This document shows, piece after piece, positions 30,947 to 34,628 of a stretch of 64,000 nt of DNA. Within the stretch, counting starts at the first letter, position 1, and each line of letters opens with the position of its first letter. Source of the stretch: an uncultured Pseudomonadota bacterium (GTDB lineage: Bacteria; Pseudomonadota; Alphaproteobacteria; RF32; CAG-239); NCBI GenBank assembly GCA_902785935.1, contig CADAAN010000006.1:4309-68308 (forward strand). Direction: 5' to 3'. A model generated the notes under the pieces. The model saw only the letters and a program-made list of their open reading frames with translations, did no database searches and was not told where the DNA came from. The position numbers were made by a program, and so were the translations under genes.

Positions 30947-32410
30947 ATGAATTTTATCAAAAAATATCCGTTTCAAATTTTTTTAAGCCTGCATTTTTTG
31001 CTTTGGAGCTTTTTACCCCTTTTGCGCAAAAGCCTGCCGATGGACAGTATTGAAGCTGTCGTGTGGGGGATGTATTGCGATTTCGGTACAAACAAACATC
31101 CGCCTTTATCGGGTTGGCTTGCCGATTTTGTTTATAACATCATCGGTTTTGAACAGCCCCTTGCCATTTATATGTTAAGTCAGCTTTGTGTGCTTTTGGG
31201 ATTTATTTATATTTATCGTTTGGCACGTGAATTTATCTCTAAAGAGCGTGCAACATTTGCCGTAATGGTGCTTGCCGGCGTGATTTATTATGGTTTCAGC
31301 GCGATTGAATATAATGTCAACGTGGTATCCTTGGCTTTGTGGCCGATGACGGCCTTTTACTTTTACAAGGCCTTAGATGAAGACAAGCTTACGGATTGGG
31401 TTTTAACGGGGCTTTTTGCGGGGCTTAATCTGTTCAATAAATACACAAGCGGTATTTTGCTTTTTTCTATGGGCGTGATGATGCTTTTTGATAAAAAAGC
31501 ACGCAAACATCTGACAAGCTATAAGCCTTATGTCTGTGCACTTGTATGTACAATAACGATTTTGCCGCATCTTTTGTGGCTTATTGATCATCAGTTTTTT
31601 TCGCTCGGCTATTTTATAGGCCGTGGCTCAAAGGGCGGATTTGACAACTTTCCGCTCTTAAAGCATATTGTTTATCCCATAAAATTTATCGGGGCGCAGT
31701 TGCTTTTCGGTCTTGGCGCATTTTTGGTTTATTTTACGGCATATTACAAGCAAAAACGCTTTGATGTGAAGGCAAACCGTTTTCAAAAAAACTTTTTATT
31801 TTTTCTGGGGTTGATGCCTGTTTTATTAATGACGCTGATAAGCTTTGTTTTCGGCTTAAAGCTCAAAAGCATGTGGGGATTTCCGTGTTATTATCTTGCG
31901 GGCGTAATGCTTTTTGTGTTTTTTCCATGCAAATTAACAAGCGTGTTTAAAAAAAGGATGTATATCGGCGTCTATGCGATGCTCTTTTTGCTCTTTTTTG
32001 CGCAGGGGTGTGTCATTTTGTTTAACAAAAGCGATAAATTTCACTTAAATCAGCAGGCCTACGGGCAAATGCTTGAAGATTTGTGGCACAAAAAATACGG
32101 CCGTTTTGATTTTGCTTATGTCGCAGGCGATGTTTGGTGGGCAGACAATGCCGCACTTTTTGCTCCATCAAGGCCAAAGCCGCTGATTTGGGGTGATATC
32201 AAACAAAATCCGTGGCTTGATGAACATGATATCAATGATAAAGGCGCCTTGGTTGTGACAAGTGACAAGTTTGAATATGATGATATCAAAAATAAGCTCA
32301 AATTTGTTTCAAAGCCTGAGATTTTGGAAATTGTGGTCACAAACAGACTTGGCAAAATCAAGAAAAAAACACTTTATTATGGTTTTTATAACGTTTACGG
32401 AGAAAGATAA
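30947..32410 (+). CDS. ArnT/PMT-like (GT39/GT83) membrane glycosyltransferase
   Basis: Roughly 10 predicted TM helices in the N-terminal two-thirds, large C-terminal soluble domain; first gene of an Arn-like module. Confidence 0.55.
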   Translation: MNFIKKYPFQIFLSLHFLLWSFLPLLRKSLPMDSIEAVVWGMYCDFGTNKHPPLSGWLADFVYNIIGFEQPLAIYMLSQLCVLLGFIYIYRLAREFISKERATFAVMVLAGVIYYGFSAIEYNVNVVSLALWPMTAFYFYKALDEDKLTDWVLTGLFAGLNLFNKYTSGILLFSMGVMMLFDKKARKHLTSYKPYVCALVCTITILPHLLWLIDHQFFSLGYFIGRGSKGGFDNFPLLKHIVYPIKFIGAQLLFGLGAFLVYFTAYYKQKRFDVKANRFQKNFLFFLGLMPVLLMTLISFVFGLKLKSMWGFPCYYLAGVMLFVFFPCKLTSVFKKRMYIGVYAMLFLLFFAQGCVILFNKSDKFHLNQQAYGQMLEDLWHKKYGRFDFAYVAGDVWWADNAALFAPSRPKPLIWGDIKQNPWLDEHDINDKGALVVTSDKFEYDDIKNKLKFVSKPEILEIVVTNRLGKIKKKTLYYGFYNVYGER

Positions 32411-33364
32411 ATGAAAAAAGTCAGTATTGTAATTTCGGCTTATAACGAAGAAGGCAATATCGAAAAATTGTATCAGGAACTTGATAAAGAACTCAAAAAA
32501 ATCGAAAAGGTTGGCTTTGAGATTTTGTTTGTCAATGATGGTAGCAAAGACACTACATTTTTTAAAATACAAAATTTGGTCGATAAAGACAACCGCGTTA
32601 AAATGGTCAACTTAAAACGCAATTTCGGCCATGAAATTGCCATGACGGCCGGTATGGACTATGCCAAAGGCGATGCCGTGATTTTTATGGATGCCGATTT
32701 GCAACATCCTCCGCTTTATATCCCCGAGATGGTCAAAGCGTGGCAGGAAGGTTATGAAATTGTTTTGACAAAGCGGGTAGACAATGTTGCCACCTCACGA
32801 TTTTATAAATTCTGCGCCAAGACATTTTATTTTATCTTAAACCTGCTTTCTGAAACAAAAATTGGCGAAAGTATGCCCGATTTCAGATTAATTGATCGTA
32901 AATATGTCGATTTTTTAAAGGGTTTTAATGAGCAAGACAGGCTTTTCAGAGGATTGCTCAGTTGGATTATGCCCAATGACAAGGTCAAAATTATTGATTT
33001 TGTCGCACCCGAAAGATTTAGCGGTACAACAAAATATAATTTTTTCAAAAGCTTAAAACTTGCGATTGACAGCATTACACAATTTTCGGTCAGGCCGCTT
33101 CATTTAGCGACATACTTCGGTTTTTTAGGCGCAGCATGTTCTGTTTTGCTCGGACTGTATGTGATTTTTGAGCATTTTATCGAGCATAATCCGACCCCCG
33201 GATACGCTACGATTGTTTGCGTCGTCGGATTTGTCGGCGCGGTACAGCTCATCACACTCGGGATTATCGGTGAGTATATCGGCAAAATCCATATTGAAGT
33301 CAAAAAGCGCCCGCTCTATTTGGCTGATTTAATTGAACAAAAAGACAAGAACGATGACAAATAA
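32411..33364 (+). CDS. GT2 polyprenyl-phosphate sugar transferase (ArnC/DPM1-like)
   Basis: VSIVISAYNEEGNI, VNDGSKDTT, DADLQHPP motifs; two C-terminal TM helices. Confidence 0.75.
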   Translation: MKKVSIVISAYNEEGNIEKLYQELDKELKKIEKVGFEILFVNDGSKDTTFFKIQNLVDKDNRVKMVNLKRNFGHEIAMTAGMDYAKGDAVIFMDADLQHPPLYIPEMVKAWQEGYEIVLTKRVDNVATSRFYKFCAKTFYFILNLLSETKIGESMPDFRLIDRKYVDFLKGFNEQDRLFRGLLSWIMPNDKVKIIDFVAPERFSGTTKYNFFKSLKLAIDSITQFSVRPLHLATYFGFLGAACSVLLGLYVIFEHFIEHNPTPGYATIVCVVGFVGAVQLITLGIIGEYIGKIHIEVKKRPLYLADLIEQKDKNDDK

Positions 33365-34628
33365 AGTGATTTTCAATGCCGATGATTTCGGTATTTCAAA
33401 AGGCGTCAATGCCGCGATTAAAAAAGCATATGATGAAGGCATATTAAATGCCGCAAGCTTGATGGTTGGCCAAAAATATGCAAAAGAGGCTGTTGAACTT
33501 TCCAAAGAGATGAAAGATTTAGACTTAGGCTTGCACGTCAATTTAACAAACGAATATCCTGTTTCAAAGGCTCAAAATTTATCTTTACTGACGGGCGAAG
33601 ACGGTAAATTTAAGAACGGATTTGTTAAGCTTTTATGGCTCTCGATTTTCAAGCCGAAAGCCTTGCGAGATGAAGTTTATGCTGAAACAGAGGCTCAAAT
33701 ATTAAAAGCTCAAGAAATGGGGGTTCGGCTCACGCACATTGACAGCCACCGCCATGTGCATATGATACCTCTAATTTTTAAGGTTATGCTTGAATTAAAA
33801 GAAAAATACCACATCAAGCGCATACGTGTTATCAATGAATGTGCCTTTTTGACAATGAAGACAAATGCCTCAAAGTCTTATCTTTTTGACGGCGGTTTGA
33901 TTAAGTATTGTCTTTTGCGTTTTTTTGCCGTACTGAACGGATATGCTTCAAAAACCTATTTTTATACCATGCTCTACACCTGCAAGCTTTCTCAAGAACA
34001 TTTCAAAAAAGTTTTGGTCCCCGCTTGTTTTGATGATGTTGAAGTTATGATTCATCCCTCCATCACGGATATTGACAAGCCTTGCAAAGAGGATATTTTT
34101 GATGAAAGTGTGATTTCGCCGTGGCGTGAGGCAGAATTGGCAACTTTGCTTGATAAATCACTTGTCAAAAATTTTGAATTTAATGCAAAATATCCCTATC
34201 TTTACAGGCTTTATTTCAAAGTCGAGCACTTGTGGTTTAAATTTGTTCCCGAAAAATTGCGTTATTTGCTTGTGGGCGGATTTAACACGGTATTTGCATA
34301 TTTGGTTTTTGTGCTTTTGCTTCAAATCCTAAAGATGCCGTATCTTTTGGCTTTAACCGTTCAATATTTTATCACGGTTAATGTTTCAATCGCAACGATG
34401 CGTTATTACGTCTTTCAAAGCAAGGGTGATATCATCAAAGAATTTATCAAAGCGTGGGGCGTATACATTGGTGTGTTTTTGCTCAATTCCGTCGGTCTGT
34501 CGTTTTTGGTTGAAGTATGCAAAATCGAACCTGTTTGGGCTCAGGCAATTTATCTGATTTTTTCAACGATTTTGACATATATTTTGCACAAATATTTTTC
34601 TTTTCACAAAAAAATTAAGCAAAAATAA
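33354..34628 (+). CDS. YdjC-family carbohydrate deacetylase (NaxD/ChbG-like) fused to a C-terminal GtrA-like membrane domain
   Basis: N-terminal VIFNADDFGISKGVN...HIDSHRHVH (YdjC metal site); C-terminal four-TM GtrA-like region (LVGGFNTVFAYLVFVLL...). Confidence 0.6.
   Translation: MTNKVIFNADDFGISKGVNAAIKKAYDEGILNAASLMVGQKYAKEAVELSKEMKDLDLGLHVNLTNEYPVSKAQNLSLLTGEDGKFKNGFVKLLWLSIFKPKALRDEVYAETEAQILKAQEMGVRLTHIDSHRHVHMIPLIFKVMLELKEKYHIKRIRVINECAFLTMKTNASKSYLFDGGLIKYCLLRFFAVLNGYASKTYFYTMLYTCKLSQEHFKKVLVPACFDDVEVMIHPSITDIDKPCKEDIFDESVISPWREAELATLLDKSLVKNFEFNAKYPYLYRLYFKVEHLWFKFVPEKLRYLLVGGFNTVFAYLVFVLLLQILKMPYLLALTVQYFITVNVSIATMRYYVFQSKGDIIKEFIKAWGVYIGVFLLNSVGLSFLVEVCKIEPVWAQAIYLIFSTILTYILHKYFSFHKKIKQK

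What the first reader, a model, noticed from the sequence alone, without database searches (positions are those of the whole stretch)
30947..34628. Arn/Flm/Lgm-like aminosugar modification module with a YdjC-deacetylase::GtrA fusion
The gene order is ArnT-like membrane glycosyltransferase, then ArnC-like GT2, then a YdjC-family deacetylase fused to a GtrA-like four-helix membrane domain. This parallels lipid A modification pathways: Francisella FlmF2/NaxD/FlmK adding GalN, and Bordetella LgmABC adding GlcN. In those, an N-acetyl-hexosamine is attached to undecaprenyl phosphate, deacetylated by a YdjC-family enzyme, flipped, and transferred to lipid A. Here the deacetylase and the putative flippase (GtrA) are a single polypeptide, which is unusual. 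A HAD hydrolase follows.
Basis: established knowledge. Interest (0 to 1): 0.6.

Follow-up and report, generated by a model that had tools for sequence, protein, structure and literature searches.

The report
Fused deacetylase-flippase aminosugar envelope cassette
An uncultured gut/rumen alphaproteobacterium carries a three-gene operon that most likely puts a positively charged amino-sugar on its outer envelope (probably on lipid A); two of the four usual proteins, the deacetylase and the small GtrA membrane protein, are fused, which is a lineage-specific twist on a known pathway.

Summary
Window 30947-34628 holds three tightly packed + strand genes. They encode a GT-C membrane glycosyltransferase (Pfam PMT_2), a polyprenyl-phosphate GT2, and one ORF with a complete YdjC deacetylase domain joined to a four-helix GtrA domain.

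The fusion is real. It occurs in at least 78 protein clusters from independent gut and rumen assemblies, and the fused proteins form one clade, so it arose once. Sister lineages carry the same cassette unfused (GT-C, GT2, YdjC, GtrA), with ydjC and gtrA overlapping by 4-16 nt. Above 108 bits in a 1.84-billion-protein library, no other YdjC::GtrA fusion was seen.

The logic matches the Francisella Flm/NaxD and Bordetella Lgm pathways: make Und-P-HexNAc, deacetylate it in the cytoplasm, flip it, and transfer HexN in the periplasm.

The acceptor is not established.
- ArnT's RYA and YFEKP motifs are absent.
- The organism makes LPS (KdsD, LptC/A, LptB in the window).

The GT2 is nearer to GtrB than to ArnC. 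The HAD gene is only a syntenic neighbour.

Verdict: a new variant of a known kind, of moderate interest.

The parts
30947..32410 (+). GT-C fold membrane glycosyltransferase (487 aa, Pfam PMT_2). It is the presumed periplasmic-face transferase that moves hexosamine from the polyprenyl-phosphate carrier to the acceptor.
32411..33364 (+). GT2 polyprenyl-phosphate glycosyltransferase (317 aa, GtrB/ArnC/DPMS class). It is the presumed Und-P-HexNAc synthase on the cytoplasmic face.
   Evidence: Pfam Glycos_transf_2 2.2e-30. Full-length match to Synechocystis GtrB 5EKP at 1e-73, to ArnC at about 1e-35 and to DPMS at 2e-18. Best NCBIfam hit is PgfS at 1.6e-83, below its equivalog cut-off. The gene starts immediately after the GT-C stop. 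It is the most conserved cassette gene, 72% identical to the unfused-lineage copy.
33354..34187 (+). YdjC-family carbohydrate deacetylase domain (residues 1-278 of the 424-aa fusion), cytoplasmic. It is the presumed Und-P-HexNAc to Und-P-HexN deacetylase, in the manner of NaxD/LgmC.
   Evidence: Pfam YdjC 7.8e-56. PDB matches to EF_3048, ChbG 7VI8 and CmCBDA 8JQE. The conserved motifs NADDFG, GLHVNLT and IDSHRHVH are invariant or nearly so in 34 fused homologues; I identify them as the YdjC metal and catalytic motifs from general knowledge of the family. There is no signal peptide: strand 1 of the barrel starts at residue 5. The ATG at 33354 overlaps the GT2 stop by 11 nt.
34188..34250 (+). 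Fusion junction. About 10 lineage-specific bridging residues (NFEFNAKYP) are followed by the N-terminal helix that unfused GtrA proteins also carry.
   Evidence: DNA alignment with the unfused relative L005 shows its overlapping stop/start (ATGATTAA) replaced by in-frame sequence containing an insertion of about 11 nt. Helix 282-297 appears in the model. The linker residues Y/P/Y/E/W/F are invariant across the fused clade.
34251..34628 (+). GtrA-family four-helix membrane domain (residues 300-424) plus the stop codon. It is the presumed flippase or carrier-lipid-binding module.
   Evidence: Pfam GtrA_DPMS_TM 2.5e-17. Four TM helices at 300-325, 330-354, 360-388 and 393-422. K/R-rich segments lie before TM1, between TM2 and TM3 and at the C-terminus (HKKIKQK), which gives an N-in/C-in topology (read from the sequence). 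It is 47-56% identical to stand-alone GtrA genes downstream of ydjC in L005, L010 and L012.
34677..35528 (+). HAD-IIA hydrolase. It is an adjacent syntenic neighbour and is NOT considered part of the cassette.
   Evidence: Pfam HAD domains. TIGR01459 scores 103.3 bits, just under its cut-off of 103.75. It is present after the fusion gene throughout the fused clade together with orf176 and CcrM, including in L008/L009 where GT-C and GT2 are not adjacent. It is absent after the unfused cassettes in L005-7, L010-11, L012 and L013.

Best explanation
This is a four-function, three-gene 'extracytoplasmic glycosylation' cassette of the Flm/NaxD-Lgm type.

Proposed steps:
1. The GT2 enzyme transfers GlcNAc (or GalNAc) from its UDP-sugar to undecaprenyl phosphate on the cytoplasmic face. 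This is inferred from family membership.
2. The YdjC domain removes the acetyl group to give cationic Und-P-HexN. The domain is held at the membrane surface by its own C-terminal GtrA domain. This is inferred from its intact conserved YdjC motifs, its cytoplasmic topology and the NaxD precedent.
3. The GtrA domain binds the carrier lipid and passes or flips it to the periplasmic leaflet. This is a hypothesis, because the flippase role of GtrA is not proven for any family member.
4. The GT-C enzyme transfers HexN to a periplasm-facing envelope acceptor, most likely a lipid A phosphate or the inner LPS region, reducing negative surface charge. The acceptor is inferred only by analogy and from the ArnT-like fold.

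The fusion arose once, by loss of the overlapping stop/start between adjacent ydjC and gtrA genes, and has been kept under selection. That argues the two proteins work as a physical unit. My confidence in the pathway type is about 0.8. My confidence that the acceptor is lipid A specifically is about 0.45.
For: - All four domains are present and score well above the Pfam cut-offs.
- The genes abut or overlap: 0-nt gap between GT-C and GT2, and an 11-nt overlap between GT2 and the fusion.
- The same set, GT-C then GT2 then YdjC then GtrA, recurs unfused at 59% and 46% YdjC identity (L005-7, L010-11).
- GT2, YdjC and GtrA recur together, or in another order, at 38-43% identity (L012, L013, and L017 next to GlmU).
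- ydjC and gtrA overlap by 4-16 nt where they are separate genes, which suggests translational coupling.
- The fused proteins are monophyletic, 34 of 34. The conserved YdjC motifs and the GtrA hallmark motifs are invariant.
- The model is confident (pLDDT 88, pTM 0.81) and has no signal peptide and four TM helices.
- ArnT is the best structural match for the GT-C by two methods.
- The GT2 matches GtrB and ArnC over its full length.
- The genome has LPS machinery: KdsD, LptC/A and LptB are in the window, and KdsB and LpxA occur in a relative's locus.
- Precedents: NaxD is a YdjC-superfamily enzyme that deacetylates Und-P-GalNAc before GalN is added to lipid A (PMC11279074). lgmA, lgmB and lgmC are required for GlcN on Bordetella lipid A (PMC4993483). 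GT2 + GtrA + GT-C is the prototype multi-component glycosylation system (PMC13390465, PMC7389260).
Against: - No experiment exists, because the organism is uncultured.
- The GT-C shows no sequence-level match to ArnT. It lacks both ArnT loop-1 motifs, 0 of 33 (motifs from PMC5377068). Only 2 of 33 family members give a weak hit to the ArnT NCBIfam model.
- I could not compare directly with LgmA-D, FlmF2/NaxD/FlmK or A. baumannii NaxD, because their sequences were not obtainable here.
- In one fused-clade genome (L008/L009) GT-C and GT2 are not next to the fusion gene.
- LgmD, the fourth gene of the Bordetella locus, is reported as not essential (PMC4993483). I could not verify its family.
Confidence: 0.55

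Rival explanations
1. The carrier-lipid pathway is the same, but the acceptor is not lipid A. The GT-C would decorate O-antigen or core sugars, a capsule or exopolysaccharide, peptidoglycan, or a periplasmic or surface protein with hexosamine. Precedents are Gtr-type O-antigen modification, the mycobacterial PpgS/Rv3779 GalN on arabinogalactan, and the streptococcal Pgf/Gac systems (the mycobacterial case is from my own knowledge).
For: The GT-C family lacks the ArnT motifs and any ArnT sequence match. The GT2's best curated match is PgfS, from a protein-glycosylation system. The GT-C is the fastest-evolving cassette member, at 40% identity against 72% for the GT2, as expected if acceptor specificity drifts. 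GT2 + GtrA + GT-C systems modify many polymers (PMC13390465, PMC7389260). The genome encodes many BspA-type LRR surface proteins.
Confidence: 0.3
2. The GtrA domain is not a flippase. It would be a membrane anchor and carrier-lipid-binding module that presents Und-P-HexNAc to the deacetylase, like the GtrA-type TM domain of archaeal dolichol-phosphate mannose synthase, with another protein or spontaneous movement doing the flipping. This reading is compatible with either acceptor.
For: The Pfam family is named GtrA/DPMS TM domain because the same four-helix module is the built-in membrane domain of DPMS (DPMS 5MLZ is also a GT2 homologue). A soluble enzyme that must act on a membrane lipid benefits from tethering. 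lgmD is dispensable in B. pertussis (PMC4993483). Flippase activity of GtrA proteins is described as predicted, not demonstrated (PMC7389260).
Against: GtrA is retained as a separate gene next to ydjC in many lineages where YdjC is soluble, so anchoring alone does not explain the association. Genetic data link GtcA/GtrA proteins to the step between the cytoplasmic and the extracytoplasmic reactions (PMC7389260). No other flippase candidate is present in the cassette.
Confidence: 0.35
3. The YdjC domain works in a different known YdjC pathway: hopanoid glucosamine formation (HpnK) or chitobiose catabolism (ChbG). Under this reading the neighbouring glycosyltransferases are unrelated.
For: The best NCBIfam hits for the fusion are HpnK (2.1e-45) and ChbG (1.1e-43). 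NCBI names its homologues 'ChbG/HpnK family deacetylase'.
Against: Both scores are far below the curated cut-offs (155 against 233 bits, and 150 against 227 bits). No hpn or chb genes are nearby. Linkage to GT2, GtrA and GT-C is conserved across lineages. Fusion to a membrane domain is unexpected for a cytosolic chitobiose enzyme.
Confidence: 0.03
4. The fusion is an artefact: a frameshift or assembly error that joined two separate genes.
For: Unfused relatives have overlapping ydjC and gtrA genes, so a single indel could join them.
Against: At least 78 clusters at 90% identity, from ENA, JGI, NCBI and Logan assemblies, show the same fused ORF at down to 58% identity. The fused proteins are monophyletic. 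The linker residues are conserved.
Confidence: 0.01

Closest known systems
Francisella FlmF2 / NaxD / FlmK, and the A. baumannii NaxD lipid A galactosamine pathway
   Same: It has a polyprenyl-phosphate GT2, a YdjC-superfamily deacetylase acting on the carrier-linked N-acetylhexosamine, and a GT-C transferase. The product is a cationic aminosugar on the envelope (PMC11279074).
   Different: Here the deacetylase is covalently fused to a GtrA domain. I recall no flippase being assigned in Francisella, but that is from my own knowledge and unverified here. The GT-C has no detectable sequence similarity to solved ArnT and lacks the ArnT motifs. The host is an uncultured gut/rumen alphaproteobacterium, and both the sugar and the acceptor are unknown.
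Bordetella lgmABCD (BP0399-BP0396) lipid A glucosamine locus
   Same: It is a four-gene locus in which lgmA, lgmB (an ArnT orthologue) and lgmC are required for GlcN on lipid A phosphates (PMC4993483, PMC5454989, PMC9858536). The logic and the number of components match.
   Different: The gene order differs: in B. holmesii ArnT is the internal gene of the locus (PMC5454989), whereas here the GT-C comes first. Here functions three and four are one polypeptide. lgmD is reported to be dispensable. Whether LgmD belongs to the GtrA family is only my recollection and could not be checked.
Generic three-component extracytoplasmic glycosylation systems (GtrA/GtrB/GtrC; CsbB-GtcA-YfhO; GacI-GacL)
   Same: They combine a GT2 polyprenyl-P sugar synthase, a small four-TM GtrA protein and a polytopic transferase. 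The GT2 here matches GtrB at 1e-73 (PMC7389260, PMC13390465).
   Different: This cassette adds a deacetylation step on the carrier lipid, and the deacetylase is fused to the GtrA module.
E. coli/Salmonella Arn pathway (ArnC, ArnD, ArnE/F, ArnT)
   Same: The concept is the same: a carrier-linked N-acylated aminosugar is de-acylated on the cytoplasmic face, flipped, and transferred to lipid A by a GT-C. ArnT is the nearest solved fold.
   Different: The sugar differs (L-Ara4N). From my own knowledge, ArnD is not a YdjC-family enzyme and ArnE/F are not GtrA-family proteins. ArnC is only the second-best GT2 match. The ArnT motifs are absent.
P. aeruginosa GpgSDF (glucosaminyl-phosphatidylglycerol)
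   Same: It follows a glycosyltransferase, deacetylase, putative flippase logic that produces a cationic GlcN lipid (PMC12713373).
   Different: The protein families are unrelated (GT4, COG3233, YbhN). There is no carrier lipid and no GT-C. It is an analogue, not a homologue.

Membership tests
YdjC / ChbG / HpnK deacetylase superfamily (Pfam PF04794) | Profile match above the gathering score, and the YdjC barrel fold | tested here: met
   190.3 bits against a cut-off of 29.7. Foldseek matches ChbG 7VI8 at E 2.5e-12, target TM 0.71-0.74.
YdjC / ChbG / HpnK deacetylase superfamily (Pfam PF04794) | Conserved Asp/His metal-binding and catalytic motifs | tested here: met
   NADDFG (D10 invariant, D11 at least 90%), GLH (H61 invariant) and D130-S-H132-R-H134 are conserved in 34 fused homologues. 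Assigning these to metal ligands rests on general knowledge of YdjC structures.
NaxD / LgmC type (Und-P-HexNAc deacetylase) | Genetic linkage to a polyprenyl-P GT2 and a GT-C transferase | tested here: met
   Same operon in the window. The linkage is conserved in L001, L002, L004, L005-7 and L010-11.
NaxD / LgmC type (Und-P-HexNAc deacetylase) | Closer in sequence to NaxD/LgmC than to ChbG/HpnK paralogues | not tested
   NaxD and LgmC sequences could not be obtained.
NaxD / LgmC type (Und-P-HexNAc deacetylase) | Deacetylase activity on undecaprenyl-phosphate-HexNAc | not testable with these tools
   Needs biochemistry.
HpnK (TIGR03473, hopanoid-associated) | Score at or above the curated cut-off | tested here: not met
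   155.2 bits against a cut-off of 232.6. No hpn genes nearby.
ChbG chitin disaccharide deacetylase (NF002559) | Score at or above the curated cut-off | tested here: not met
   149.6 bits against a cut-off of 227.
GtrA family (Pfam PF04138) | Profile match above the gathering score, and four TM helices | tested here: met
   63.6 bits against 26.1, covering profile positions 1-117 of 117. Four helices in the model.
GtrA family (Pfam PF04138) | Flippase activity for polyprenyl-P sugars | not testable with these tools
   The literature describes this as predicted only (PMC7389260).
ArnT / GT83 lipid A aminosugar transferases | GT-C fold closest to ArnT | tested here: met
ArnT / GT83 lipid A aminosugar transferases | Conserved RYA and YFEKP motifs in periplasmic loop 1 (PMC5377068) | tested here: not met
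   Both motifs are present in 0 of 33 family members. The loop instead reads PMD[ST]xEA..WG..GT[NT]KHPP.
ArnT / GT83 lipid A aminosugar transferases | Sequence-profile match to ArnT (NCBIfam PRK13279, or PDB ArnT) | tested here: not met
   No NCBIfam hit for the window protein, and only 2 of 33 relatives hit weakly at 7.6e-4. No PDB hit by phmmer or by profile.
ArnT / GT83 lipid A aminosugar transferases | Lipid A as the acceptor | not testable with these tools
   Needs lipid A mass spectrometry.
ArnC (PRK10714 equivalog) | Score at or above the curated cut-off | tested here: not met
   150.1 bits against a cut-off of 529.
GtrB/ArnC/DPMS class of polyprenyl-phosphate GT2 enzymes | Full-length similarity, including the C-terminal membrane helices | tested here: met
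   Residues 4-305 align to GtrB 5EKP at 1e-73, and residues 1-308 to ArnC at about 1e-35.
Multi-component extracytoplasmic glycosylation system (GT2 + GtrA + GT-C) | All three components encoded together | tested here: met
   The arrangement is conserved in the loci.
HAD-IIA TIGR01459 | Score at or above the curated cut-off | tested here: inconclusive
   103.3 bits against a cut-off of 103.75.

The most novel reading that the evidence does not exclude
The conserved ydjC-gtrA coupling and its fusion could mean that GtrA proteins are the missing export partner of NaxD-type deacetylases. Under this reading deacetylation and flipping are physically channelled: only the deacetylated, cationic Und-P-HexN is handed to the GtrA module, which makes deacetylation a gate for export. 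The fused protein would then be a natural single-chain model for solving what GtrA proteins actually do.
Probability: 0.3. Interest if true: 0.55.

Novelty: new variant of a known kind. Interest (0 to 1): 0.38.

Why it matters
There are three reasons it could matter.

1. Gene fusions are classic evidence that two proteins act together. This one links the NaxD-type deacetylase step to the poorly understood GtrA family. It therefore offers a candidate for the carrier-lipid export step of hexosamine pathways, and a convenient single-chain construct for structural and biochemical work.
2. It suggests that an abundant but uncultured group of gut and rumen Alphaproteobacteria masks its envelope charge with an aminosugar. 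That is relevant to resistance against host cationic peptides and polymyxins, and to how their LPS is sensed.
3. It defines a GT-C subfamily with its own loop-1 motif, distant from ArnT, whose acceptor is unknown.

None of this overturns current understanding.

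Tried and rejected
- Sequence searches of the GT-C against solved structures, by phmmer and by a 33-sequence profile, found nothing relevant. Only fold comparison worked.
- The primary papers on NaxD and on the lgm locus are not held. LgmD's family therefore stays unverified, and I could not obtain NaxD, Lgm or Flm sequences for direct comparison.
- A full-text search for papers holding YdjC, GtrA and lipid A together returned none.
- tblastn of the fusion against 72,556 plasmid records found only ChbG- and HpnK-type YdjC genes, no cassette and no fusion. 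The Methylobacterium and Enterococcus hits have no GT-C, GT2 or GtrA neighbours.
- Longer YdjC proteins in the exhaustive search turned out to be other architectures, not GtrA fusions: methyltransferase::YdjC, YdjC::formyltransferase, and a 385-aa protein with a non-GtrA tail.
- The idea that the 176-aa ORF after the HAD gene matches the 167-aa ORF after the unfused cassette was rejected (BLASTP E 0.32).
- The promoter and terminator scan gave counts near the shuffled expectation and no usable operon boundaries.
- Cluster look-up of the nearest distant YdjC relatives gave almost no organism names: one Rickettsiales MAG.
- GpgSDF was considered as a rival model and rejected as non-homologous.

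Full report
**1. Observation**

The coordinates and gene order are exactly as reported. Four + strand ORFs lie at 30947-32410 (487 aa), 32411-33364 (317 aa), 33333-34628 (431 aa from a TTG) and 34677-35528 (283 aa).

Pfam gives the following:
- ORF1: PMT_2, a GT-C glycosyltransferase, 3.3e-36.
- ORF2: Glycos_transf_2, 2.2e-30.
- ORF3: YdjC at residues 11-278 (7.8e-56) plus GtrA_DPMS_TM at residues 310-424 (2.5e-17, full profile length), in one ORF.
- ORF4: HAD domains.

An alignment of the fusion with 33 homologues shows the real start is almost certainly ATG 33354, giving 424 aa that begin MTNKVIFNADDFG. That start overlaps the GT2 stop codon by 11 nt. GT-C and GT2 abut with no gap. The three genes therefore look like one translationally coupled operon.

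**2. Is the fusion real, and how rare is it?**

A search of 5.8 billion protein clusters returned 78 top clusters at 58-98% identity, each about 420-436 aa and each carrying both Pfam domains. They come from ENA, JGI, NCBI and Logan assemblies. The named sources are rumen and other MAGs labelled Alphaproteobacteria. The hits that follow immediately are stand-alone YdjC proteins of about 276 aa at 56-60% identity.

An exhaustive phmmer scan of 1.84 billion 50%-identity representatives listed 150 hits, down to 108 bits. Only one representative (P0077, plus a fragment, P0081) spans both domains. All the others are YdjC-only or GtrA-only. The few longer YdjC proteins have other architectures.

A neighbour-joining tree of the YdjC domain places all 34 sampled fused proteins in one clade with no unfused member inside it. 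So the fusion happened once and has been kept down to 58% identity. Both domains and the linker contain many invariant columns. An artefact is excluded.

**3. How the fusion arose**

In the sister lineage (L005-L007, 59% YdjC identity) the order is PMT_2 (487 aa), GT2 (322 aa), YdjC (279 aa), GtrA (157 aa). There gtrA starts 8 nt before the ydjC stop, at ATGATTAA.

DNA alignment of the junction shows the fused lineage has in-frame sequence there, including an insertion of about 11 nt. This adds roughly ten bridging residues (NFEFNAKYP) ahead of the N-terminal helix that stand-alone GtrA proteins already have.

The same four-gene cassette occurs at 46% identity (L010/L011). GT2-YdjC-GtrA occurs at 40% and 38% (L012, L013), again with overlapping ydjC and gtrA. 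A Rickettsiales MAG has GlmU-SH3-GtrA-GT2-YdjC. The association of YdjC with GtrA and a polyprenyl-P GT2 is therefore old and widespread. The fusion is one lineage's version of it.

**4. The individual parts**

*GT2.* It aligns over its full length to Synechocystis GtrB (5EKP) at 1e-73, to ArnC at about 1e-35 and to DPMS at 2e-18. The best NCBIfam model is PgfS at 1.6e-83, and ArnC scores 6.8e-44; both are below their equivalog cut-offs. It is a polyprenyl-phosphate glycosyltransferase of the GtrB type, so 'ArnC-like' is only loosely right.

*YdjC domain.* It matches the solved structures EF_3048, ChbG and CmCBDA. It keeps the conserved motifs NADDFG, GLH and DSHRHVH, which I take to be the family's metal and catalytic motifs from general knowledge. 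It falls below the HpnK and ChbG cut-offs, so it is a competent deacetylase that belongs to neither of those curated subfamilies.

*Fusion model.* The model has pLDDT 88.3 and pTM 0.81. It shows the barrel starting at residue 5 with no signal peptide, a helix at 282-297, and TM helices at 300-325, 330-354, 360-388 and 393-422. Basic residues cluster before TM1, in the TM2-TM3 loop and at the C-terminus (HKKIKQK). This gives an N-in/C-in topology and a cytoplasmic deacetylase domain (read from the sequence).

**5. The HAD gene**

The HAD-IIA gene follows the fusion gene throughout the fused clade, together with a 176-aa ORF, CcrM and two Ppx/GppA genes. In L008/L009 this whole downstream block is kept, while GT-C and GT2 are not adjacent. 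None of the unfused cassettes is followed by a HAD gene. I therefore treat it as local synteny and not as a pathway component.

**6. Context**

The window comes from a diderm that makes LPS. It contains KdsD (21847-22812), an LptC/LptA-like ORF (22813-23748), LptB (23748-24491) and an Mla transporter (12743-15957). Related loci carry KdsB, LpxA and LpxD.

**7. Mechanism**

The best-supported reading is a four-function carrier-lipid pathway:
1. The GT2 makes Und-P-HexNAc in the cytoplasmic leaflet.
2. The tethered YdjC domain deacetylates it.
3. The GtrA domain binds the product and flips it or hands it over.
4. The GT-C transfers HexN to a periplasm-facing acceptor.

Steps 1, 2 and 4 rest on family membership, topology and conserved gene linkage, plus the NaxD and Lgm precedents (PMC11279074, PMC4993483). 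Step 3 rests on the general but unproven view of GtrA proteins as flippases (PMC7389260, PMC13390465).

Lipid A, or the inner LPS region, is the most likely acceptor. The characterised systems of this type that I could find modify lipid A, and ArnT is the nearest fold. The missing ArnT motifs, the PgfS-like GT2 and the fast-evolving GT-C keep other acceptors open. I put the pathway type at about 0.8 and lipid A specifically at about 0.45.

An alternative role for the GtrA domain is a membrane anchor and carrier-lipid-binding module, as in DPMS. This is compatible with everything seen and is not excluded.

**8. Comparison and novelty**

The system works like Flm/NaxD and Lgm, and more generally like GT2-GtrA-GT-C three-component systems with an added deacetylation step. 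It is analogous, but not homologous, to GpgSDF (PMC12713373).

I could not test orthology to NaxD/LgmC/LgmB/FlmK, or whether LgmD is a GtrA protein.

The fusion, the distinct GT-C subfamily and the host group appear to be undescribed. The only names these proteins carry are automatic ones: 'ChbG/HpnK family deacetylase', and JGI's 'ChbG.../putative flippase GtrA'. No paper in the searchable library holds YdjC, GtrA and lipid A together.

This is a new variant of a known kind. Its main value is as Rosetta-stone evidence that couples the deacetylase to GtrA, and as a handy single-chain object for studying GtrA function. Interest is moderate.

Noticed in passing
window 22813-23748 (with 21847-22812 and 23748-24491): Within a kdsD - lptC/A - lptB cluster, a single 311-aa ORF hits both LptC (residues 75-211) and the LptA/OstA-type domain (residues 222-308). 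It may be an LptC-LptA fusion or a two-domain Lpt bridge protein.
   Followed up: partly
window 9998-12169 (-) and 18405-20579 (+), flanking 12743-15957: Two paralogous ORFs of about 723 aa, each with an acyltransferase plus an AMP-binding domain (Aas-like lysophospholipid acyltransferase/acyl-ACP synthetase architecture). They bracket an MlaE/MlaF/MlaD/auxiliary-lipoprotein operon.
   Followed up: no
window 16266-17324, 20594-21493, 29407-30540, 40816-41874, 45087-45986: At least five BspA-type leucine-rich-repeat (LRR_5) proteins are scattered through the window. One sits directly upstream of the cassette on the opposite strand.
   Followed up: no
window 1-9552: A low-GC stretch (about 30% against about 40% elsewhere) ends in a tyrosine integrase (8395-9552). 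It also carries an AbiEi antitoxin-like regulator (7542-8303), an HTH/pentapeptide protein, an Hsp70/MreB-like ATPase (4827-6206), a GT1 glycosyltransferase (3530-4768), a NUDIX protein and an ATP-grasp protein. It looks like an integrated mobile element.
   Followed up: partly
L008 / L009 (GCA_949283495.1), locus 7126-10190: In the most divergent fused-clade genome, the ydjC::gtrA gene keeps its downstream neighbours (HAD, orf176, CcrM, Ppx). Upstream it has a 162-aa unknown ORF, an abhydrolase, RuvX and KdsB instead of GT-C and GT2. I did not determine whether those two genes lie elsewhere in that genome.
   Followed up: partly
proteins P0193, P0218, P0211: Other YdjC fusions exist: a SAM-methyltransferase::YdjC (507 aa), a YdjC::formyltransferase (572 aa, which recalls de-acylation followed by re-acylation of an aminosugar), and a YdjC with a 95-aa N-terminal extension that resembles the tail of a GT2.
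   Followed up: partly
L017 2626-6813 (Rickettsiales MAG): A different arrangement of the same functions: GlmU, an SH3-domain protein, GtrA, GT2, YdjC, with LpxD about 2 kb downstream and no adjacent GT-C. The GlmU linkage hints at GlcNAc as the sugar.
   Followed up: no
window 38123-39226 and 39201-40130: Two tandem, overlapping Ppx/GppA-family genes lie downstream of a CcrM-type N6-adenine methyltransferase (37022-38119). The arrangement is conserved across the clade (L008/L009).
   Followed up: no
window 50127-50211 and 50133-51551: tRNA-Leu(TAG) overlaps the mechanically called start of the trigger-factor ORF, so the real tig start must be further downstream. tRNA-Trp lies at 42982-43057, next to nusG.
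   Followed up: no
window 59995-60609 (-) and 61614-63437 (-): A bundlin/PilS-like type IVb pilin gene, and a large Lnb_N/DUF7840/DUF7843 protein near the right end of the window.
   Followed up: no
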